A stretch of DNA of 63,407 nucleotides, counting the filler, from Rozella allomycis CSF55 (lineage: Eukaryota): assembly GCA_000442015.1 (NCBI GenBank). It is 12 parts of 12 records of this genome, joined end to end, with 100 filler letters (N's around TTAATTAATTAA, not from the genome) between each part and the next. Parts side by side here need not be neighbours in the genome. Positions count along the whole stretch, not along the records: positions 58,049 to 63,407 come from KE561138.1; 11 more parts are not named here. One strand, 5' to 3'. Under the pieces are notes generated by a model. That model ran no database searches, was not told the DNA's origin, and saw only the letters and a list, made by a program, of their open reading frames with translations. Made by a program: the position numbers and the translations under genes. Shown here piece by piece: positions 56,276-63,407 of this stretch (positions are counted from its first letter, which is position 1; each line of letters opens with the position of its first letter).

Positions 56276-57676
56276 TTCGTAAGGTGGTCCGGAACAACGA
56301 TTTTGAGATGCACAGGATCGTAATTTTCATGGGTTGAGTAACCCGCAGACCCAACAATTTGTCTTATGGGCAGTTGTTGAAAATAGTTGCCTTCCGCCAC
56401 ATCATGTTTCCAGTGAAGGCCTATTCGGATATCCGCTGGATCAACCCCCGCCTCTTGAAGATCCTTGGCGCAATTTTTACGTCCCAAATGCACACACTTG
56501 GTAAAATGATAATTGTGATGACCGGCGACTTTACTTATGCGTTCCGTGTGTGTCGAGGACGATATTGCCTTAAAGCAAGCCTTTTTGGATGCATGCGAAA
56601 TATGAATTTTCATTAGGGTATCAAAATCAGTCCAATCCTCAACCTCTTTATCGAAATCCAACATACGATGCATTTGCAATAACAACCAAAAAATGGAACA
56701 TAATTGGGGATCGCGATGCGGCACTATACCGGATTCTTTAGGGACTTCCAACTAGTTAACTAAAACTAAAAACTCTTACATTAGGCATCCATTTACTTTC
56801 ATACATGATCGCTAGTATACCATGTATTTCCCGCCCCCTAAATTTAAATCTATTTGGCTGAAATTGAAGCAACTTCATTGGTCGAAGATCATCGCCCCGA
56901 TTTCCCGTTTGGTACAGAAAGGCCCACATGAAGGCATCCCTTATTCCGCATCCCAGACTAACCCTGCCTGAGCTACAGCATGTTAACAAGCCGAAAAGCA
57001 TTTGCTTTCTTTGATCTGTTGTAAGCCTATTGTCTAAAGAAGAATTCCGGATTACATCCGTGATGCTTGACTTTTTGTTGCGATCGCGCGCTAATCGTTT
57101 TAAATGATTACTTAAAAAGGTTTTTACGTCGGCGTTAAATAACCGCCCTTCGGATGCTAATGCTGGATTATTGATTGATTGTGTCAACCAAAGACGACTT
57201 AAACCAAAAACTATTTTTTTCAAACTTTGATATCCAATTGTGCGATTTTCCCTTCCTTTGATTTTTTGACTTCTAGTCACGGAATATTGGAGATATTTTA
57301 GAAAACGTACTTTCGTTAATTGATCACTACCCTCGCCTTGGTCCTTGCACCACTTTTGATATTCTTCCACAACTCTCCGTTGGGTCTCCTTTCCCCCTGT
57401 TCGTCTCACGGCTAATTCGTCTTCGTAAATGTCTAATCGCAGTCTTTTTAAGGTTAAATCATACTCTGCGCCTTGTTCCTCATGTACGAATTCAACATCC
57501 AGGTTTTCCAGTTCAAGAATAGCATTGGCATGCGAATCAGTGGGTGCATTAATAACAAGGTCACTACCATTAGATATATCAGCAATGGCCTCCTGTATTT
57601 CGGTGAATAATTCTTCTTCCTCAACGTCTTGTTCGATTTCCTCGTCAAAAAGTAAGCTAGTGCTAAGATTTTCCAT
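56276..57676 (-). CDS. Crypton (CryptonF)/Ndc10-II-like tyrosine recombinase, one intron, 3' end lost in gap
   Basis: Phase-0 intron 56752-56779 joins the two ORFs. RD..TGNRGDDLR.MKL, HRDPQLC, KCVHLGR..A..L.EAGV..IR..LHW..AEGNYF..LP..AGY, with R, HxxR, W and Y catalytic positions present. Confidence 0.85.
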
Positions 57677-58048: not shown

Positions 58049-60583
58049 GAGTTGGATTCTTCTTCAATTAAATCTATTTTTGGATTTCTTAAATTTCTTA
58101 AATCATCAACTGGTAAAAACAATTTCTCAAATTCAATTGAAAATAATTTAATCAAACTAAACATTAAAGAAAATAAATTGAATCTTCCATGTTTAGCAAA
58201 TCCATTGTGTGGAAATGTTGATTTTAAAAAGGAAGCAAAGTTTGATTTCAATGTAGATTTGAATGGATTGCAAGATTATTTAAAGAATTCAATTGAATCT
58301 CTATCAGATGAAAAGTATCGTTCTTTTTATTTATTGTTAAACAAATATCCAAATTCTATCAATTATAACATTTTCATTGATTCTATTGAATTGTCAACTG
58401 AATTAAACTATGACAAGGTAGCCACCATCAAACTAGATCCAATTGACCTGAAAGGGAAAGAGAGTAGTGAAGGGGGTAGAGAGAATGTAGATAATAAAGA
58501 CGTTGTAGAGAGTAAAGATCTAATAGAGAATAAAGACATTGTAGAGAATAAAGATCTTGTGGAGAATAAAGATCTAATAGAGAATAGAGATCTTGTAGAG
58601 AATAAAGATCTAATGCAAAATGTTTCTCCTTCTAATTCATCTAATTCCCTTTCACTTTCTCAATCTCATTCTCCATCTTTGACTGTGGTTTTTACTGATT
58701 ATGAACCAATTGCCAACTTTTTGTATAATTATTTACCAGATAGACAAAAGAGTTTGGGTGTAGAGGGAAGATTGTTTAATGATTATAGACCTCAAATTAG
58801 ATCTCTTCTTAATAGCCCTGGTTTATTATCTCTAACTCATTCTGATTCTAGTAGCAATCTATTCTCATTCATTGTTGGTGCATCACTAGACTTTCATTCT
58901 ATTTTAAATCCATTAACTAAAAGTTCAATTGATTGGTTAGATTGGCAACCAATTCATGTTTCTCAATTTTCAATAAAAGTAAAGAAATCTATTTCTGAAA
59001 TTTCACAATTACAAAAATTAAGCAAATGGATTTCAATTGATTTAAATCATTCAAGTATTCTATTTAAAAATGGACTTGTGACATTTATGGAAATAGTTTG
59101 GGAAAATGATCAAATCACATTGGAATTGTTTTGTAATGAAAATGATCCTTCTTCTTGTGAAAACATGCAGTTTGGATTCTCTAAATTTGCTCTTGGGCAA
59201 GTTTTAAGTTTAAACGTTGAATTGACGCTGAATAAATTAATGCATATTTCATTTCCACTTGAACAGCAACACGGTGACTTTGCTATTGCTTTTATTCATG
59301 ATTTAAATGTCAGCATTTCAAGACCTTTTAGAAAATTTAAATATGAAGTTGGAGCGTTTTTGAAATTTAAAAATTCATTTGTTGTTGACATTGACGTTTT
59401 AGATCTAAGTGGCAATGTTACATTCAAGAAATATCCTGGATCTATTAATACAAACAATGAAATTTTAATTGGTCAATTGGAACCAGGAACTAGGGAAAGA
59501 TCTAATGTGTTTTTGAGTGTTCAGCATGGAACCTTTGAAAATCCATCTTTTAGTGAACAAGGCGAATTGGCTATCAAACTAAAACCAAACATTCTAGAGT
59601 TAACTTCAATATACAAAGGGAAGGCTTATTATGGCTATTGCATGACAATCAAAGGGTTAATGAAAGTTCAAGTTTCATTTGAAAACATGCCAGGCAAATT
59701 CAACATGACCTTTGTTGTTGATATTAGAGAAATGACTGAATATGAAAAACCTTTTTCATTCTCTCTTGTGAAAAACACGTGCAAAGATCATTTCACTCCC
59801 TGCTACAATTCTATTCTTCCTTCAACCGTTCATCTCTCCAAACAAGAAAATTATTATCTCTTGGAAAATTCCTCTCTTCTTCCGACAGATTCTTTCAAAC
59901 TATCAATCAAAAATTCAAACTCATTCTCAACCTACTTTATGGGTAACCAAATTATTCAATTCTATAAATAGATTCAGAAAATTGGCTGGTTTTGGAAATT
60001 TACAAATCTTCCTATTTTAGAAGTTCCAAAATTTCTCTAAAATATTTCAAAAATGGGAAACTATCAAACACCCTAGAGTCTCAGGAAATTGATTACAATA
60101 CTTCAAACATTGACATCATTTACGATGCTAATCAATCGCTCTTATTTGTTCAGTCGTACATTGACGATTCCAGAGTTCCATTCATTTCATACTTTTACAT
60201 AAACTTTAGAGACATTTTCACTTTAAGAATCAATCCTTACATTTCACACGACTTGAAAGATGTCGCATTCACAATCAGTAATTAATTACCTCCCTATTCA
60301 TCTAGTTTACCCCGTACTGGAAAAGACTAGAATATTCTTTGAATCTCCAAATGTCCCCAACGCAAATGAATCGGCAATCGCTATTGTTCAGTTCTACAAC
60401 TACTGTGACAGGCCGTTCATGTCATTTGGTTACATCAATTTTGAATTGGAGAATGGTCGTGTTAGCATCGCGGATGTGGATTACAGTCTGGGCGTCGTTA
60501 AAATATCCTATGCTTTAAACTCCCCCGGTAAATTTACCCTCCTGGCAAACGACCATCCTATTGGATTTCTATACGCTATTTAA
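58049..60583 (+). CDS. Large orphan protein (5' truncated) with ENKDL(V/I) hexapeptide repeats and possible C-terminal Ig/filamin-like domain
   Basis: Introns 59943-59971 and 60279-60305 join three ORFs in frame; 18-bp tandem repeat at ~58485-58612. Confidence 0.65.
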
Positions 60584-60778
60584 TAAATTTTGCTTTAGAT
60601 TAATTAGACTTTATGAGTTCAGAGTTATGAGTAAATGTAAATGCTTAATTGTCAAATCTTAATTGTTAATGTCAAATGTCATTTTAAAACTCCATTTATT
60701 TTGCTTTCCAAGCACATATAAAGTATTGCCTAAAACGGTTTCCCAATTTAATCTCCATTATTAAACAAGGGTCCTCCA

Positions 60779-62781
60779 ATGCCAGAATGCTACGGTCCCG
60801 TGCAAAATTTAGAGTCAATGTTGAAACCCCAATGGTGGACGAGTGTATTCGCCGACGAATGGTACCTGAAAACGGACGGCGACGTTGTGGAAGACCCTGA
60901 AATTACTAGAGAAGAAATCAAGCTGCTCGAGTCGTTTCCGTTCATCAAGCAAATACTCGAAACGCCGAATTGCAAGATTCTGGACCTGTGCTGTGGACAG
61001 GGCAGGCATTCTTTGGAACTTGCGTGTCAGTATCCGCATGCGGAGCTGTTTGGGCATGATCAGTCGGCGTTTTTGATTAGTGTGGCTGCAAAGAGGGCTG
61101 AGAGTATGACTTTGGAGGATGGGAATAGACCGGTTTTTACGATTGGCGATTGCAGGTCGGTGCCATACGAGTCGGGTATGTTTGACTTGGTGATTGTGAT
61201 GGGCAATTCGTTTGGGTATTTCGACCAATCAGAGTCTGATTCGTTGGTGCTAGAGGAGATTTACAGGGTGCTGAAGCCGAATGGGTGTATTGTGCTGGAT
61301 CTGACGAATGGCGCGTTTATGAAGGAGAATTTCGCAAAGAGAAGCTGGGAGTGGATTAATGAGACGTGTTTTGTGTGCAGGGAGAGGGAGCTCGCTAAAG
61401 ATGGCAAAAGGCTTGTGTCGAGGGAGGTGATTACGGATATTGCCAAGGGGGTGATCAAGGACCAGTTCTACCAGGAGAGGCTGTATACGGAGCAGGAGAT
61501 TTTTGGGATGCTGAAGAAAGCTGGGTTCAAGTATTCGGATGTGCTGTTGCAGGATGTGACGACGGGAAAGGAATTGAGCAAGAGGCAGCAGGATTTGGGG
61601 ATGATGGAGTGCAGAATGTTTATACAGGCGTCGAAAGAAGATGTTGGCAAAAGAATTCAATTGGATGTTGTGAATGAGCTTTCTTTATTTACGTTTTCAA
61701 AGTTGGTTGTGATTTTGGGAGACTCTAATTTGGATTGCGTAGGGAAAATGAAGAATGAGTGGGACAGACAGCTGGAAATTGAAACAAAAAATAAATTGAA
61801 AGATGCGATTGAAGAGATTGGATTTACAAGAGAAAATGTTTTGTATTTAGAAGATCATCCAAGATTGTTTGAAGAATTGAACAAGTTGAAGAATGAATCT
61901 GTTTTTGTATTCAATTTGTGTGATGATGGGTTTCAAAATAACGCGCTTCATGAACTTCATATTCCTTCGCTGCTTGAATTGTCTGGTTTGAAATACTCTG
62001 GGGCCCCGCCAAAAACGTTGGCTATTTGTTATGATAAAAATGTTACAAATCAAATTGTAAAGTCAATGGGAATCTCAGTGCCAAAAGAAATTTGGTTGGA
62101 TGATCCAGAACAGCTTCAAGATCCTTTAATAATTTCGAAAATTGAAGAAATTGGATTTCCGATTTTTGTTAAACCCGCGCNGTTAAACCTGCGCAAGCTG
62201 ACAATTCATTTGGAATCTTCAAGAATAATGTAGTTGAAAACTTTAAACAACTTAAAACGCGCGTTTGGGCACTTTTTAATGATTTTGAAGAGATTTTGGT
62301 TCAAGAATTTTTGAATGGCAACGAGTATTCAGTTGGATTTATAGGCAACGTTGACCAAGACAATTTCAGTGTTCTTCCGATTATTCAAGTTGATTATTCA
62401 AAGTTGGTTGAAAGCAATCTAAGTCCAATTCTCGGCTATGAATCAAAATGGGATCCAACTTCTCCTTATTGGACGCAAGTAGAATACAAGCAAGCTGATT
62501 CACTTTCATTGAAACAGTCAAAGGAACTAATTGAAAATTGTAAAAGACTCGCCAAACGATTCAAGTGTCTCGATTACTCTAGATTTGATTTTAGAACGGA
62601 TAGAAATGGAATAATTAAATTACTAGAAATAAATCCGAATCCTGGCTGGTGCTGGGATGGAAAACTCGCAAAAATGTGTAGCTTAAAAGAAACAAACTAT
62701 TCAAAAATGATCCAAGACATCTTGCTAGCCTCTGTAACTAGATGGACCCAAAGTGACAATTCCAGTATTCAAGATCGATAA
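60779..62781 (+). CDS. Class I SAM-dependent methyltransferase fused to D-Ala-D-Ala-ligase-like ATP-grasp domain
   Basis: ILDLCCGQGRH, GD.RSVPY..FDLVIVMGNSFGYF, VLKPNG; then VFNLCD, LELSGLKYSG, DK, FPIFVKPA|QADNSFGI, VQEFLNGNEYSV, YESKW, YSRFDFR, LLEINPNPG. The break at n62181 is a duplicated GTTAAACC.GCGC assembly overlap. Confidence 0.9.
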
Positions 62782-62806
62782 ATAAACATTAAAAGATTAA
62801 ACTTAT

Positions 62807-63407
62807 TTATTTTCTTAAACTTTCTAGAGCTCTAATCCTTTTCAAAAGTTCCAGATTTTCAATTTTCAAGTCTTCTATAGCCCTGTTAAACTTTGCTTCC
62901 CTTTCGTTAGAATTAACAATGTTATTTTGCACCAATGAATACAATGTGGAAAATGCATTTCTAAATTCGTCTCGCGTCAAGTATATCAAACTCTCATTCT
63001 TTAACAAGTAATCTTCGGCTTTTCTTTTTAATAATTTAATGGTAGAATCAGTCTCAAATTTAATATTCTTTTGCTCTGGAGCAACAGCGTCTGTCAGTTT
63101 TCGCTTTTTGCCGGGTATAGATAACGGCGGCTGATTAACANTTTTTGCCGGGTATAGATAACGGCGGCTGATTAACAGATTCTATTTGTGGTCCCTTTGG
63201 AGACGTTTGTTTCTTCAATAGTGCTTCTCTAAGTATCGTTGATGGCGACTTTGTTGATTTTGAAGATGATGGTGTTGATTGATGCGAGCTTGCTACACTG
63301 AGTAATAATTCCGCCTCTTTAAGCATTGTTCTTGGTGATGATAGCTTGAATGTTTGGTTTGGAGGTGAGGTTAGATTAACAGTTCTGATTTCAGAAACTC
63401 TGCCAGA
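62807..63407 (-). CDS. C-terminal part of an unidentified Ser/Pro-rich protein ending in a coiled coil (runs off window)
   Basis: Open frame either side of the junction at 63141, ending AIEDLKIENLELLKRIRALESLRK*. Confidence 0.55.

What the first reader, a model, noticed from the sequence alone, without database searches (positions are those of the whole stretch)
60779..62781. Intronless methyltransferase / D-Ala-D-Ala-ligase-like ATP-grasp fusion in a eukaryote
Seen: one intronless gene (after removing an overlap artifact) joins a class I SAM methyltransferase to a complete Ddl-like ATP-grasp domain with an EINPNPG motif. It shares a gap-bounded segment with a tiny-intron gene. Established: Ddl-type ligases are mainly prokaryotic and fungi make no peptidoglycan; ATP-grasp ligases paired with methyltransferases build modified small peptides such as mycosporine-like amino acids. 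Inference: a horizontally acquired, self-contained two-step enzyme making an unknown methylated amino-acid conjugate.
Basis: partly seen in the sequence, partly recalled or inferred. Interest (0 to 1): 0.8.

Follow-up and report, generated by a model that had tools for sequence, protein, structure and literature searches.

The report
Methyltransferase–ligase fusion gene in Rozella
This is a real, intact gene of the fungal parasite Rozella for a two-part enzyme (a methyl-adding part joined to a bond-forming ligase part) that belongs to a widespread, highly conserved family of unknown product, and Rozella inherited it from early fungal ancestors instead of taking it recently from bacteria.

Summary
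Window 60779-62781 (+) is one intronless ORF of 662 codons once a 14-nt assembly overlap (13-nt duplicate plus n at 62181) is removed. Independent contigs from four runs lack those 14 letters. The gene encodes a class I SAM methyltransferase joined to a complete Ddl-like ATP-grasp ligase. It is the Rozella allomycis gene deposited as a 648-aa model, which skips 14 conserved residues.

The "horizontally acquired" reading is not supported at the level of Rozella. The same fusion occurs in many chytrids, Blastocladiomycota and Monosiga. A methyltransferase-only form occurs in Mortierellomycota. At least 583 prokaryote species genomes also carry it. Eukaryote sequences form one clade whose branching follows the species tree. 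Contamination is excluded by linkage to a tiny-intron neighbour.

The closest characterised relative of the methyltransferase half is NmbA, the bacillithiol N-methyltransferase. The ligase half keeps the ATP/Mg motifs but not Ddl's D-Ala site. My best reading is a self-contained ligase plus N-methyltransferase that makes an unknown N-methylated aminoacyl amide.

One feature is unexplained: a mirror-image C3/G3 skew island centred on the upstream spacer makes the 5' kilobase of the gene G-ending.

Interest is moderate.

The parts
60779..62781 (+). Whole coding region of the fusion gene as it stands in the window. It includes the 14-nt artefact. The true ORF is 662 codons plus a stop.
60779..61633 (+). 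NmbA-like class I SAM methyltransferase domain (residues 1 to about 285). The Pfam core covers residues 62-186 (nt 60962-61336).
60977..61012 (+). SAM-binding motif I, ILDLCCGQGRHS. This is the family signature DLCCGQGRH.
61108..61119 (+). Allelic or strain indel site in a variable loop of the methyltransferase. All four runs also hold a longer form here. The window's form is present in X1 and X3.
   Evidence: tables 7 and 8. The in-frame reading of the longer form is by eye only.
61634..61693 (+). Short non-conserved linker between the two enzymatic halves.
   Evidence: In the fold of the bacterial orthologue the linker has pLDDT under 50.
61694..62180 (+). N-terminal and early central part of the Ddl-like ATP-grasp ligase, up to the VKP ATP-binding strand.
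62168..62181 (.). Assembly overlap artefact: one copy of a 13-nt duplicate plus n. It is absent from real DNA.
   Evidence: table 4
62182..62778 (+). Remainder of the ATP-grasp ligase (Pfam Dala_Dala_lig_C). Its first 13 nt repeat 62168-62180.
62626..62646 (+). EINPNPG motif, part of the family signature NPNPGWCWDG. The E and N correspond to the Mg-binding E-x-N of Ddl/VanA.
60779..61775 (+). Stretch rich in G-ending codons. G3 is 0.47 before and 0.17 after the maximum-likelihood change point at codon 332. The support interval is nt 61634-61817.
59850..60583 (+). 3' end of the upstream gene, rich in C-ending codons. This is the mirror half of the skew island.
60584..60778 (.). Intergenic spacer at the centre of the C3-to-G3 switch. 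It holds the presumed promoter of the fusion gene, which is not mapped.
   Evidence: Bacterial promoter-like sites are no more frequent than chance.
58052..60583 (+). Upstream neighbour gene with two tiny GT-AG introns (59943-59971 and 60278-60305). No Pfam family was found.
   Evidence: It is linked to the fusion gene in contigs of 7.2 kb and 5.8 kb.

Best explanation
This is an intact nuclear gene of Rozella allomycis for a 662-residue bifunctional enzyme.

The C-terminal half is a three-domain, Ddl-like ATP-grasp carboxylate-amine ligase. By analogy with Ddl, it would use ATP-Mg to turn a carboxylate into an acyl phosphate. An amine then attacks this to give an amide. This step is inferred.

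The N-terminal half is a class I SAM methyltransferase of the group with a four-strand cap. Its closest characterised relatives methylate the free alpha-amine of an amino-acid moiety whose carboxyl is already in an amide bond (NmbA, CypM, CcbJ).

The most likely product is therefore an N-methylated aminoacyl amide, that is, a small dipeptide-like metabolite. It would be made by ligation followed by N-methylation. The order of steps and the substrates are inferred and are not shown.

The gene belongs to a highly conserved, uncharacterised family. It is patchy in bacteria and archaea and present in zoosporic fungi and a choanoflagellate. Rozella received it by descent from the fungal ancestor.
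For: Gene is real and single:
- The 14-nt artefact is absent in 4 of 4 runs.
- Contigs of 3 of 4 runs bridge the boundary between the domains.
- Contigs of 7.2 kb and 9.7 kb run on into both flanks.

Domains: Pfam and NCBIfam.
- Methyltransferase fold: pLDDT 88.8, pTM 0.89.
- Best Foldseek hits: 3d2l, CypM, CcbJ, TylM1, GSMT and 9ri2.
- 9ri2 is NmbA. It is the best sequence match in the PDB, with E 1e-19 to the single sequence and 3e-31 to the family profile over almost the whole chain.
- The activity of NmbA on the cysteine N of bacillithiol comes from PMC12719100 (abstract and sections 2.1, 2.3 part 1 and 2.4 read).
- Ligase half: the fold of the bacterial orthologue matches Ddl chains with TM about 0.8 normalised to the target. 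The VKP...S.G, R.D and E.N motifs align to VanA.

Still functional in Rozella:
- It keeps 170 of 190 columns that are at least 90% conserved in 101 relatives.
- It keeps 6 of the 8 columns that fall in the stretch skipped by the deposited model.

Descent:
- Eukaryote against prokaryote split 100* (145 rows; 41 rows with LG+C20).
- Both domain trees agree.
- Mortierellomycota methyltransferase-only proteins nest among the fungi.
- Blastocladiomycota carry the fusion.

Self-contained:
- Only one recurrent neighbour was found, an AstE/AspA-type deacylase. It occurs in 10 of 132 flanking genes and in 13 of 80 loci within about 1.2 kb.
- That fits a hydrolysable N-acyl-amino-acid bond.
Against: - No substrate, product or activity was tested.
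- The link to NmbA is only 23-25% identity, and C-methyltransferases (PsmD, SeMT) are also among the fold hits. N-methylation is therefore likely but not shown.
- Methyltransferase-only forms (Mortierellomycota and several prokaryotes on long contigs) and ATP-grasp-only forms exist. The two reactions are therefore separable, and the methyltransferase may act on a common metabolite and not on the ligase product.
- The full-length fold gives no fixed orientation between the domains (pTM 0.61). Nothing supports channelling.
- The deacylase is absent from 4 of 5 and 5 of 6 fusion-bearing genomes examined.
- The trees are unrooted, and 16 of the 45 'chytrid-like' rows are unnamed sequences placed only by the tree.
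- No RNA evidence for expression was obtained.
Confidence: 0.6

Rival explanations
1. The gene was recently transferred from bacteria into Rozella, or the contig is bacterial contamination.
For: - Ddl-like enzymes are mainly prokaryotic.
- The gene is intronless.
- It lies on a 5.4-kb contig.
- Its 5' half is GC-richer than the rest of the window.
- A Batrachochytrium 'D-alanine-D-alanine ligase' with a methyltransferase GO term was listed as a bacterial transfer (PMC5005798).
Against: - Rozella groups with chytrids, Mortierellomycota and choanoflagellate-like rows, apart from 96 prokaryote rows (100*).
- Both domains behave alike.
- There is no closer prokaryote donor: best prokaryote identity is 52% in the methyltransferase half and 44% in the ligase half, against 59% and 48% for eukaryotes.
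- The gene is linked to a tiny-intron gene in independent contigs.
- Arg codons are AGR and NNY codons end in T, which is not a bacterial codon usage.
- Bacterial promoter-like sites are no more frequent than chance.
Confidence: 0.03
2. The enzyme modifies a protein or peptide and not a small molecule. The ATP-grasp half would add a residue to a carboxyl terminus or side chain, as RimK or tubulin ligases do (recalled). The methyltransferase would methylate an amine of the same target. The M14-like deacylase would remove the tag.
For: - Conservation is very high across domains of life, about 50% identity between Rozella and archaea in the methyltransferase half. This is common for enzymes with macromolecular substrates.
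- CypM, a peptide N-terminal methyltransferase, is among the best fold hits.
- The recurrent neighbour is a carboxypeptidase-like enzyme.
- In some Planctomycetota the gene lies next to trmD.
Against: - The ligase half is closest to Ddl proper in both sequence and fold, and that clade acts on small molecules.
- No precursor-peptide or partner gene recurs.
- The family is sparse: 6 of 201 Planctomycetota genomes carry it. That is unexpected for a modifier of a universal protein.
Confidence: 0.17
3. The order is the reverse, or the two reactions are uncoupled. The methyltransferase would first N-methylate a free amino acid or another common metabolite, and the ligase would then use it. Alternatively the two halves serve different pathways.
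For: - Methyltransferase-only orthologues occur in Mortierellomycota and in prokaryotes.
- Ligase-only relatives occur.
- GSMT, a methyltransferase of a free amino acid, is among the fold hits.
- No docking between the domains is predicted.
Against: - The fusion and its domain order are kept in all full-length members, from archaea to fungi.
- The nearest characterised methyltransferases act on amide-linked amino-acid moieties (PMC12719100).
Confidence: 0.17
4. It is a true D-alanine-D-alanine ligase, a relic of or a contributor to a peptidoglycan-like pathway.
For: - The best Pfam, NCBIfam and PDB matches are Ddl and VanA.
- Several sources name relatives 'D-alanine-D-alanine ligase'.
Against: - Scores are far below the curated Ddl cut-offs: 121 bits against 245.65 for a full bacterial orthologue, and 38 and 61 bits for the two Rozella pieces.
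- The segment after the PG turn reads WCWDG where VanA has FTSYS.
- The loop that closes the D-Ala site is replaced by a family-specific YE.KW.P.SPYW block.
- The gene is found in archaea and in Chlamydiae, Patescibacteria and fungi irrespective of wall type.
Confidence: 0.03

Closest known systems
D-alanine-D-alanine ligase and VanA-type D-Ala-D-X ligases (ATP-grasp)
   Same: - Complete three-domain fold (TM about 0.8 to Ddl chains).
- Conserved ATP-binding strand (VKP...S.G).
- Conserved R.D and E.N metal and transition-state motifs.
- An acyl-phosphate mechanism is therefore expected.
   Different: - Scores are below every curated Ddl cut-off.
- The residues after the PG turn and the lid loop differ and are family-specific.
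- It is fused to a methyltransferase.
- It occurs in organisms without peptidoglycan.
NmbA, bacillithiol N-methyltransferase (PDB 9RI2; PMC12719100)
   Same: - It is the best sequence relative with a solved structure. It aligns over the Rossmann core and the cap region.
- It supports the likely chemistry of amine N-methylation.
   Different: - Identity is only about 23-25%.
- NmbA is a stand-alone enzyme that co-occurs with BshA, BshB and BshC.
- The paper found no bacillithiol pathway in eukaryotes or archaea (section 2.1). The substrate here must therefore differ.
Mycosporine-like amino acid pathway: O-methyltransferase plus the ATP-grasp MysC and the Ddl-like MysD (recalled, not tested here)
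   Same: It pairs an ATP-grasp or Ddl-like ligase with a methyltransferase to build a small amino-acid conjugate.
   Different: - Its enzymes are separate and lie in a gene cluster with a sugar-phosphate cyclase.
- Its methyltransferase is of another family and O-directed.
- No such cluster surrounds this family.
Carnosine synthase plus carnosine N-methyltransferase, which make anserine (recalled, not tested here)
   Same: An ATP-grasp ligase makes a dipeptide that a SAM enzyme then N-methylates. This is the closest functional analogy among eukaryotes.
   Different: - The two proteins are unrelated to this family and are not fused.
- The methylation is on the imidazole ring and not on an alpha-amine.
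RimK or tubulin-ligase type ATP-grasp enzymes paired with M14 carboxypeptidases (recalled)
   Same: The pairing of a ligase with a carboxypeptidase-like hydrolase resembles the accessory AstE/AspA neighbour seen in 13 of 80 loci.
   Different: - Those ligases belong to other ATP-grasp clades and act on proteins.
- Here the hydrolase is absent from most genomes that carry the fusion.

Membership tests
Ddl / VanA D-Ala-D-X ligases | Three-domain ATP-grasp fold with ATP and Mg motifs | tested here: met
   - Foldseek of the bacterial orthologue model gives TM about 0.8 normalised to the Ddl chain.
- The motifs align to VanA.
- The Rozella sequence keeps them.
- The Rozella protein itself could not be folded whole because of the artefact.
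Ddl / VanA D-Ala-D-X ligases | Score above the curated family cut-offs (NCBIfam TIGR01205 and equivalogs) | tested here: not met
   - 121.4 bits against a cut-off of 245.65 for P0053.
- 38.3 and 60.7 bits for the two Rozella pieces.
Ddl / VanA D-Ala-D-X ligases | D-Ala-binding residues: the Ser after the PG turn and the Lys/Tyr or His of the lid loop. The identity of these residues is recalled. | tested here: not met
   - The alignment to VanA shows PGWCWDG against PGFTSYS.
- The lid region is replaced.
- The family-specific residues are invariant or nearly so.
Class I SAM-dependent methyltransferases | Rossmann-like fold with the glycine-rich motif I and an acidic residue after strand 2 | tested here: met
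   - Pfam Methyltransf_31/25/11 scores are above their cut-offs.
- Model pLDDT is 88.8.
- There are at least 500 PDB methyltransferase hits.
- Motif I lies at 60977-61012.
NmbA (bacillithiol N-methyltransferase) orthologues | Close sequence clustering with NmbA and co-occurrence with BshA, BshB and BshC | tested here: not met
   - Identity is 23-25% only.
- The bacillithiol genes were not searched here.
- The paper reports no bacillithiol pathway in eukaryotes or archaea, although the fusion occurs in both.
- The result is 'works like' and not 'member'.
Uncharacterised methyltransferase-Ddl-like fusion family (no curated name found) | Both domains in one ORF in this order, with the signatures DLCCGQGRH and NPNPGWCWDG | tested here: met
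   - Both signatures are present. They were the patterns that retrieved 583 prokaryote loci.
- 170 of 190 conserved columns are kept.
- The sequence groups inside the family tree.

The most novel reading that the evidence does not exclude
The family makes a not yet described N-methylated aminoacyl-amide metabolite, for example a new low-molecular-weight thiol or a compatible solute. This compound would be shared by many anaerobic bacteria, Asgard and other archaea, zoosporic fungi and choanoflagellates. An accessory M14-like deacylase would turn it over in some lineages. Rozella, despite its reduced parasite genome, would have kept the pathway since the origin of fungi.
Probability: 0.35. Interest if true: 0.7.

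Novelty: new variant of a known kind. Interest (0 to 1): 0.4.

Why it matters
The gene is one member of a large, strongly conserved enzyme family. Identity is about 50% between a fungal parasite and archaea. No product is known for the family, and I found no functional paper on it. The recent characterisation of NmbA now gives a concrete, testable chemistry, which is ligation followed by amine N-methylation.

Finding the product would add a metabolite to the biology of Asgard archaea, of many uncultured anaerobes and of early-diverging fungi, including the amphibian pathogen Batrachochytrium.

For genome annotation, the case shows that the deposited Rozella model hides 14 catalytic-core residues behind a false intron caused by an assembly overlap. 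It also shows that 'bacterial-looking' genes of chytrids can be old fungal genes.

The mirror-image C3/G3 island around the upstream spacer may mark a replication or transcription start region in an organism where neither has been mapped.

Tried and rejected
- Own genome: none is held. Paralogues, the genome-wide frequency of G3 islands and a Rozella deacylase could therefore not be searched.
- RNA evidence: no RNA holder was listed among the runs.
- Assembly chimera as the cause of the compositional break: rejected, because contigs of 3 of 4 runs bridge it.
- Foreign origin of the methyltransferase half: rejected.
  - The per-domain trees agree.
  - The shift is to G-ending codons only, with AGR Arg codons.
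  - It runs past the domain border.
  - It is mirrored by C-ending codons in the upstream gene.
  - 75 prokaryote orthologues show no such difference (-0.01 +/- 0.04).
- GC-biased gene conversion: unlikely, because C3 is unchanged.
- Antisense ORFs 60815-61228 and 61250-61660: they are codon-aligned by-products and match no Pfam family.
- Deacylase as an obligate partner: rejected.
- Search for a deacylase orthologue in eukaryotes: the 120 listed hits were all prokaryote-like, and the Atlas gave only bacterial clusters, so this stays unresolved.
- Bacterial promoter and terminator scan: no more sites than chance (8 against 5.6 +/- 2.5).
- Rfam: no match.
- NCBIfam: no family reaches its cut-off.
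- Papers:
  - No hit for the fusion with several term sets.
  - No hit for four locus tags.
  - A PMC id recalled for the 2009 amidoligase survey was not held, so that paper was not seen.
- One opposite-strand joint (61346 to 62492) occurs in a single contig of depth 9 in run X5 only. I take it as an assembly error.
- L041 'fusion' of the deacylase: only AstE was found in that long ORF. It is probably an overlapping-frame artefact of my ORF caller and is not claimed.
- Stand-alone ligase in Mortierellomycota: not seen among the 20 of the 150 best representatives that I looked up by name. This does not show absence.
Full report
**What is in the sequence**

The stretch 58049-63407 is one 5359-nt contig. 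The window as a whole is a chain of small contigs joined by N44-spacer-N44 blocks. The 100% protein hit comes from a contig of exactly this length.

On the + strand an ORF starts at 60779 and runs for 467 codons to 62179. There a 13-nt direct duplicate (62168-62180 against 62182-62194, one mismatch) flanks an n at 62181. Read from 62182, the frame stays open to the stop at 62779-62781. Removing 14 nt gives a single ORF of 662 codons.

This is an assembly artefact. Eleven of the 31 single-N sites in the window carry flanking duplicates of 12 nt or more. Logan contigs from 4 of 4 runs laid (three studies) show '14 letters left out' at 62168 or 62177.

The deposited model (P0003, 'ATP-grasp fold, sub 2 domain-containing protein', Rozella allomycis CSF55, 648 aa) bridges the artefact with what must be a false intron. 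It thereby loses 14 residues. Eight columns that are at least 90% conserved in the family fall in that stretch, and the window's true reading restores six of them.

**Domains**

Pfam finds Methyltransf_31/25/11 at residues 62-186 and Dala_Dala_lig_C in the C-terminal piece.

The upstream neighbour (58052-60583) becomes one 824-codon ORF when two GT-AG introns of 29 and 28 nt are removed. Only 4 intron combinations in the searched ranges do so.

**Is it really one Rozella gene?**

- Contigs of three of the four runs (X1, X2, X3) bridge the border between the two domains.
- A 7206-nt contig (X2) and a 5768-nt contig (X5) join the 5' part of the gene to several kb upstream.
- A 9682-nt contig (X2) carries the 3' part about 8 kb further downstream.
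- All four runs break at 61107/61120, where they hold a second, longer form of a variable loop. The window's form is also present in X1 and X3. I read this as an allelic indel that stays in frame, but that reading is by eye only.
- No RNA run holding the gene was listed, so expression is untested.

**Relatives and descent**

A search with the first 467 residues gave 3997 hits among the 8000 candidates scored. Of the 120 listed, the best 50 or so are eukaryote or eukaryote-like:
- 32 named rows, namely Rozella, about 25 chytrid genera, Monosiga brevicollis and one transcriptome protein.
- After these come bacteria and archaea of many phyla, including four Asgard groups. Nearly all have the same two-domain make-up and about 640 residues.

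The family is nevertheless sparse: 6 of 201 Planctomycetota genomes carry it.

Longer fusion proteins of Blastocladiomycota (Paraphysoderma 939 aa, Blastocladiella 1075 aa) came to light only in the search without a length limit. Mortierellomycota carry methyltransferase-only orthologues of 330-435 aa.

Trees:
- With 145 rows, the 96 prokaryote rows separate from the 49 eukaryote-type rows at 100*. The 47 fungal-type rows are supported at 98* (FastTree).
- With 41 rows under LG+C20 the result is the same: prokaryote against eukaryote 100*, the two choanoflagellate-type rows 99*, chytrids 96*, and Rozella plus one unnamed sequence at the base of the fungal set (94).
- The methyltransferase and ligase columns analysed apart both keep Rozella in the eukaryote clade.
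- In the methyltransferase tree, Mortierellomycota (99*) join the chytrids above Rozella.

This is the order of the species tree, so descent from the fungal, and probably the opisthokont, ancestor is the simple reading.

Caveats:
- The trees are unrooted.
- 16 of the 45 'chytrid-like' rows are unnamed and were labelled by position only.
- The prokaryote rows were a sample.

An ancient transfer between prokaryotes and the eukaryote stem is neither shown nor excluded. A 2016 study of Batrachochytrium lists a bacterial-origin 'D-alanine-D-alanine ligase' with the GO term SAM-dependent methyltransferase activity, and next to it a 'succinylglutamate desuccinylase' (PMC5005798, table passages). That this is the orthologue is my inference, because the supplements were closed.

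**What the two halves are like**

Ligase half:
- The family profile matches VanA and many Ddl entries (E 1e-32 and below). The ATP-binding strand and the R.D and E.N motifs align.
- The AlphaFold model of a bacterial orthologue (pLDDT 85) superposes on Ddl chains with TM about 0.8.
- It is not a Ddl. Scores are half or less of the curated cut-offs. The residues after the PG turn read WCWDG where VanA has FTSYS. The lid region is replaced by an invariant family block.

Methyltransferase half:
- The Rozella domain folds with pLDDT 88.8 and pTM 0.89.
- Its best Foldseek hits are 3D2L, CypM, CcbJ, TylM1, DesVI, GSMT, some indole C-methyltransferases, and 9RI2.
- 9RI2 is the best match by sequence (E 1e-19; profile E 3e-31 over residues 14-241 of 266).
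- NmbA, CypM and CcbJ all methylate the free amine of an amino-acid unit whose carboxyl is already in an amide. That is the kind of compound a Ddl-like ligase releases. For CypM this rests on its entry title. For CcbJ it is recalled. From this comes my proposed order, ligation followed by N-methylation.

**Context**

In 80 prokaryote loci the gene is mostly solitary. Among 132 immediate neighbours of 76 loci, the only family seen more than three times is AstE/AspA (10 times). By clustering it lies within about 1.2 kb in 13 of 80 loci. This is a zinc deacylase of the carboxypeptidase clan. Its weak best NCBIfam match is the ectoine-pathway deacetylase DoeB.

The deacylase is accessory:
- Only 1 of 5 fusion-bearing genomes has it.
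- Only 1 of the 6 fusion-bearing Planctomycetota has it. No genome without the fusion scores above 260 bits, against 524 bits for the one that has it.

Mechanosensitive-channel genes occur in 7 of 80 loci. I treat this as a weak hint only.

The full-length model gives no confident orientation between the domains (pTM 0.61; linker under pLDDT 50). The linker varies from about 20 to more than 100 residues in eukaryotes.

**An unexplained feature**

The first 283 codons have third-position G of 0.48. The rest of the gene has 0.19, and 15 other long ORFs of the window have 0.16. C3 is unchanged at 0.15.
- In four-fold boxes G is 61 of 99 against 24 of 125 (p 8e-11).
- Arg stays AGR and NNY codons stay T-ending.
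- The change point is at codon 332 (support interval nt 61634-61817). None of 500 permutations reached the observed log-likelihood ratio.
- The 75 prokaryote orthologues show nothing similar.
- The upstream gene, on the same strand, shows the mirror image. Its last 220 or so codons have C3 of 0.29 against 0.08-0.12 earlier, with G3 unchanged.

The locus thus carries a C-to-G skew switch centred on the 195-nt spacer 60584-60778. This speaks against a foreign origin of the methyltransferase half and against an assembly chimera. It would fit a replication-origin-type skew jump, or divergent transcription from one promoter. I could not test either without the genome.

**Verdict**

The gene is an ordinary member of a widespread family. 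That family is uncharacterised, unusually conserved, and now open to a specific biochemical test.

Noticed in passing
window 59850-61800: A mirror-image skew island at synonymous sites. Codons end in C in the last 220 or so codons of the upstream gene and in G in the first 330 or so codons of the fusion gene. Both genes are on the + strand. The island is centred on the spacer 60584-60778. It may mark a replication or divergent-transcription start region.
   Followed up: partly
window 61107-61120: All four runs laid hold a second, longer form of a variable methyltransferase loop. The window's form is also present in two of the runs. About 35 further single-base differences between runs lie across the gene, roughly 1.7% of sites.
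   Followed up: partly
window 60629-60688: In the four runs, 58 nt of the upstream spacer are replaced by 65 other letters in one contig each. This is a second structural difference, close to the presumed promoter.
   Followed up: no
window, 31 single-N sites (for example 14311, 18363, 24164, 29369, 30652, 31122, 32250, 43014, 49418, 63141): Eleven of the 31 single-N sites are flanked by direct duplicates of 13 to 344 nt. These are unmerged contig overlaps. They will break or distort other gene models of this assembly in the same way.
   Followed up: partly
window 40665-43203: This small contig carries gag-like and aspartic-protease-like ORFs, so it looks like an LTR retroelement. It is the only other patch of the window with about 50% GC, and it holds a 119-nt overlap duplicate at 43014.
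   Followed up: no
window 56756-57676 (-): A 306-codon ORF on the preceding contig has no Pfam match.
   Followed up: partly
L046:7944-9900 and L046:11607-13500: One uncultured bacterium carries two copies of the fusion gene about 1.7 kb apart.
   Followed up: no
P0243-P0291 (Mortierellomycota proteins): Mortierellomycota hold two size classes (about 335 aa and about 400 aa) of methyltransferase-only orthologues. Whether a separate ligase gene exists there is unknown.
   Followed up: partly
G080:C36:16330-18333, G140:C52, G030:C197 and others: Many Planctomycetota carry tandem pairs of stand-alone ATP-grasp genes that are distantly related to the ligase half (about 200 bits). They have no fused methyltransferase.
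   Followed up: no
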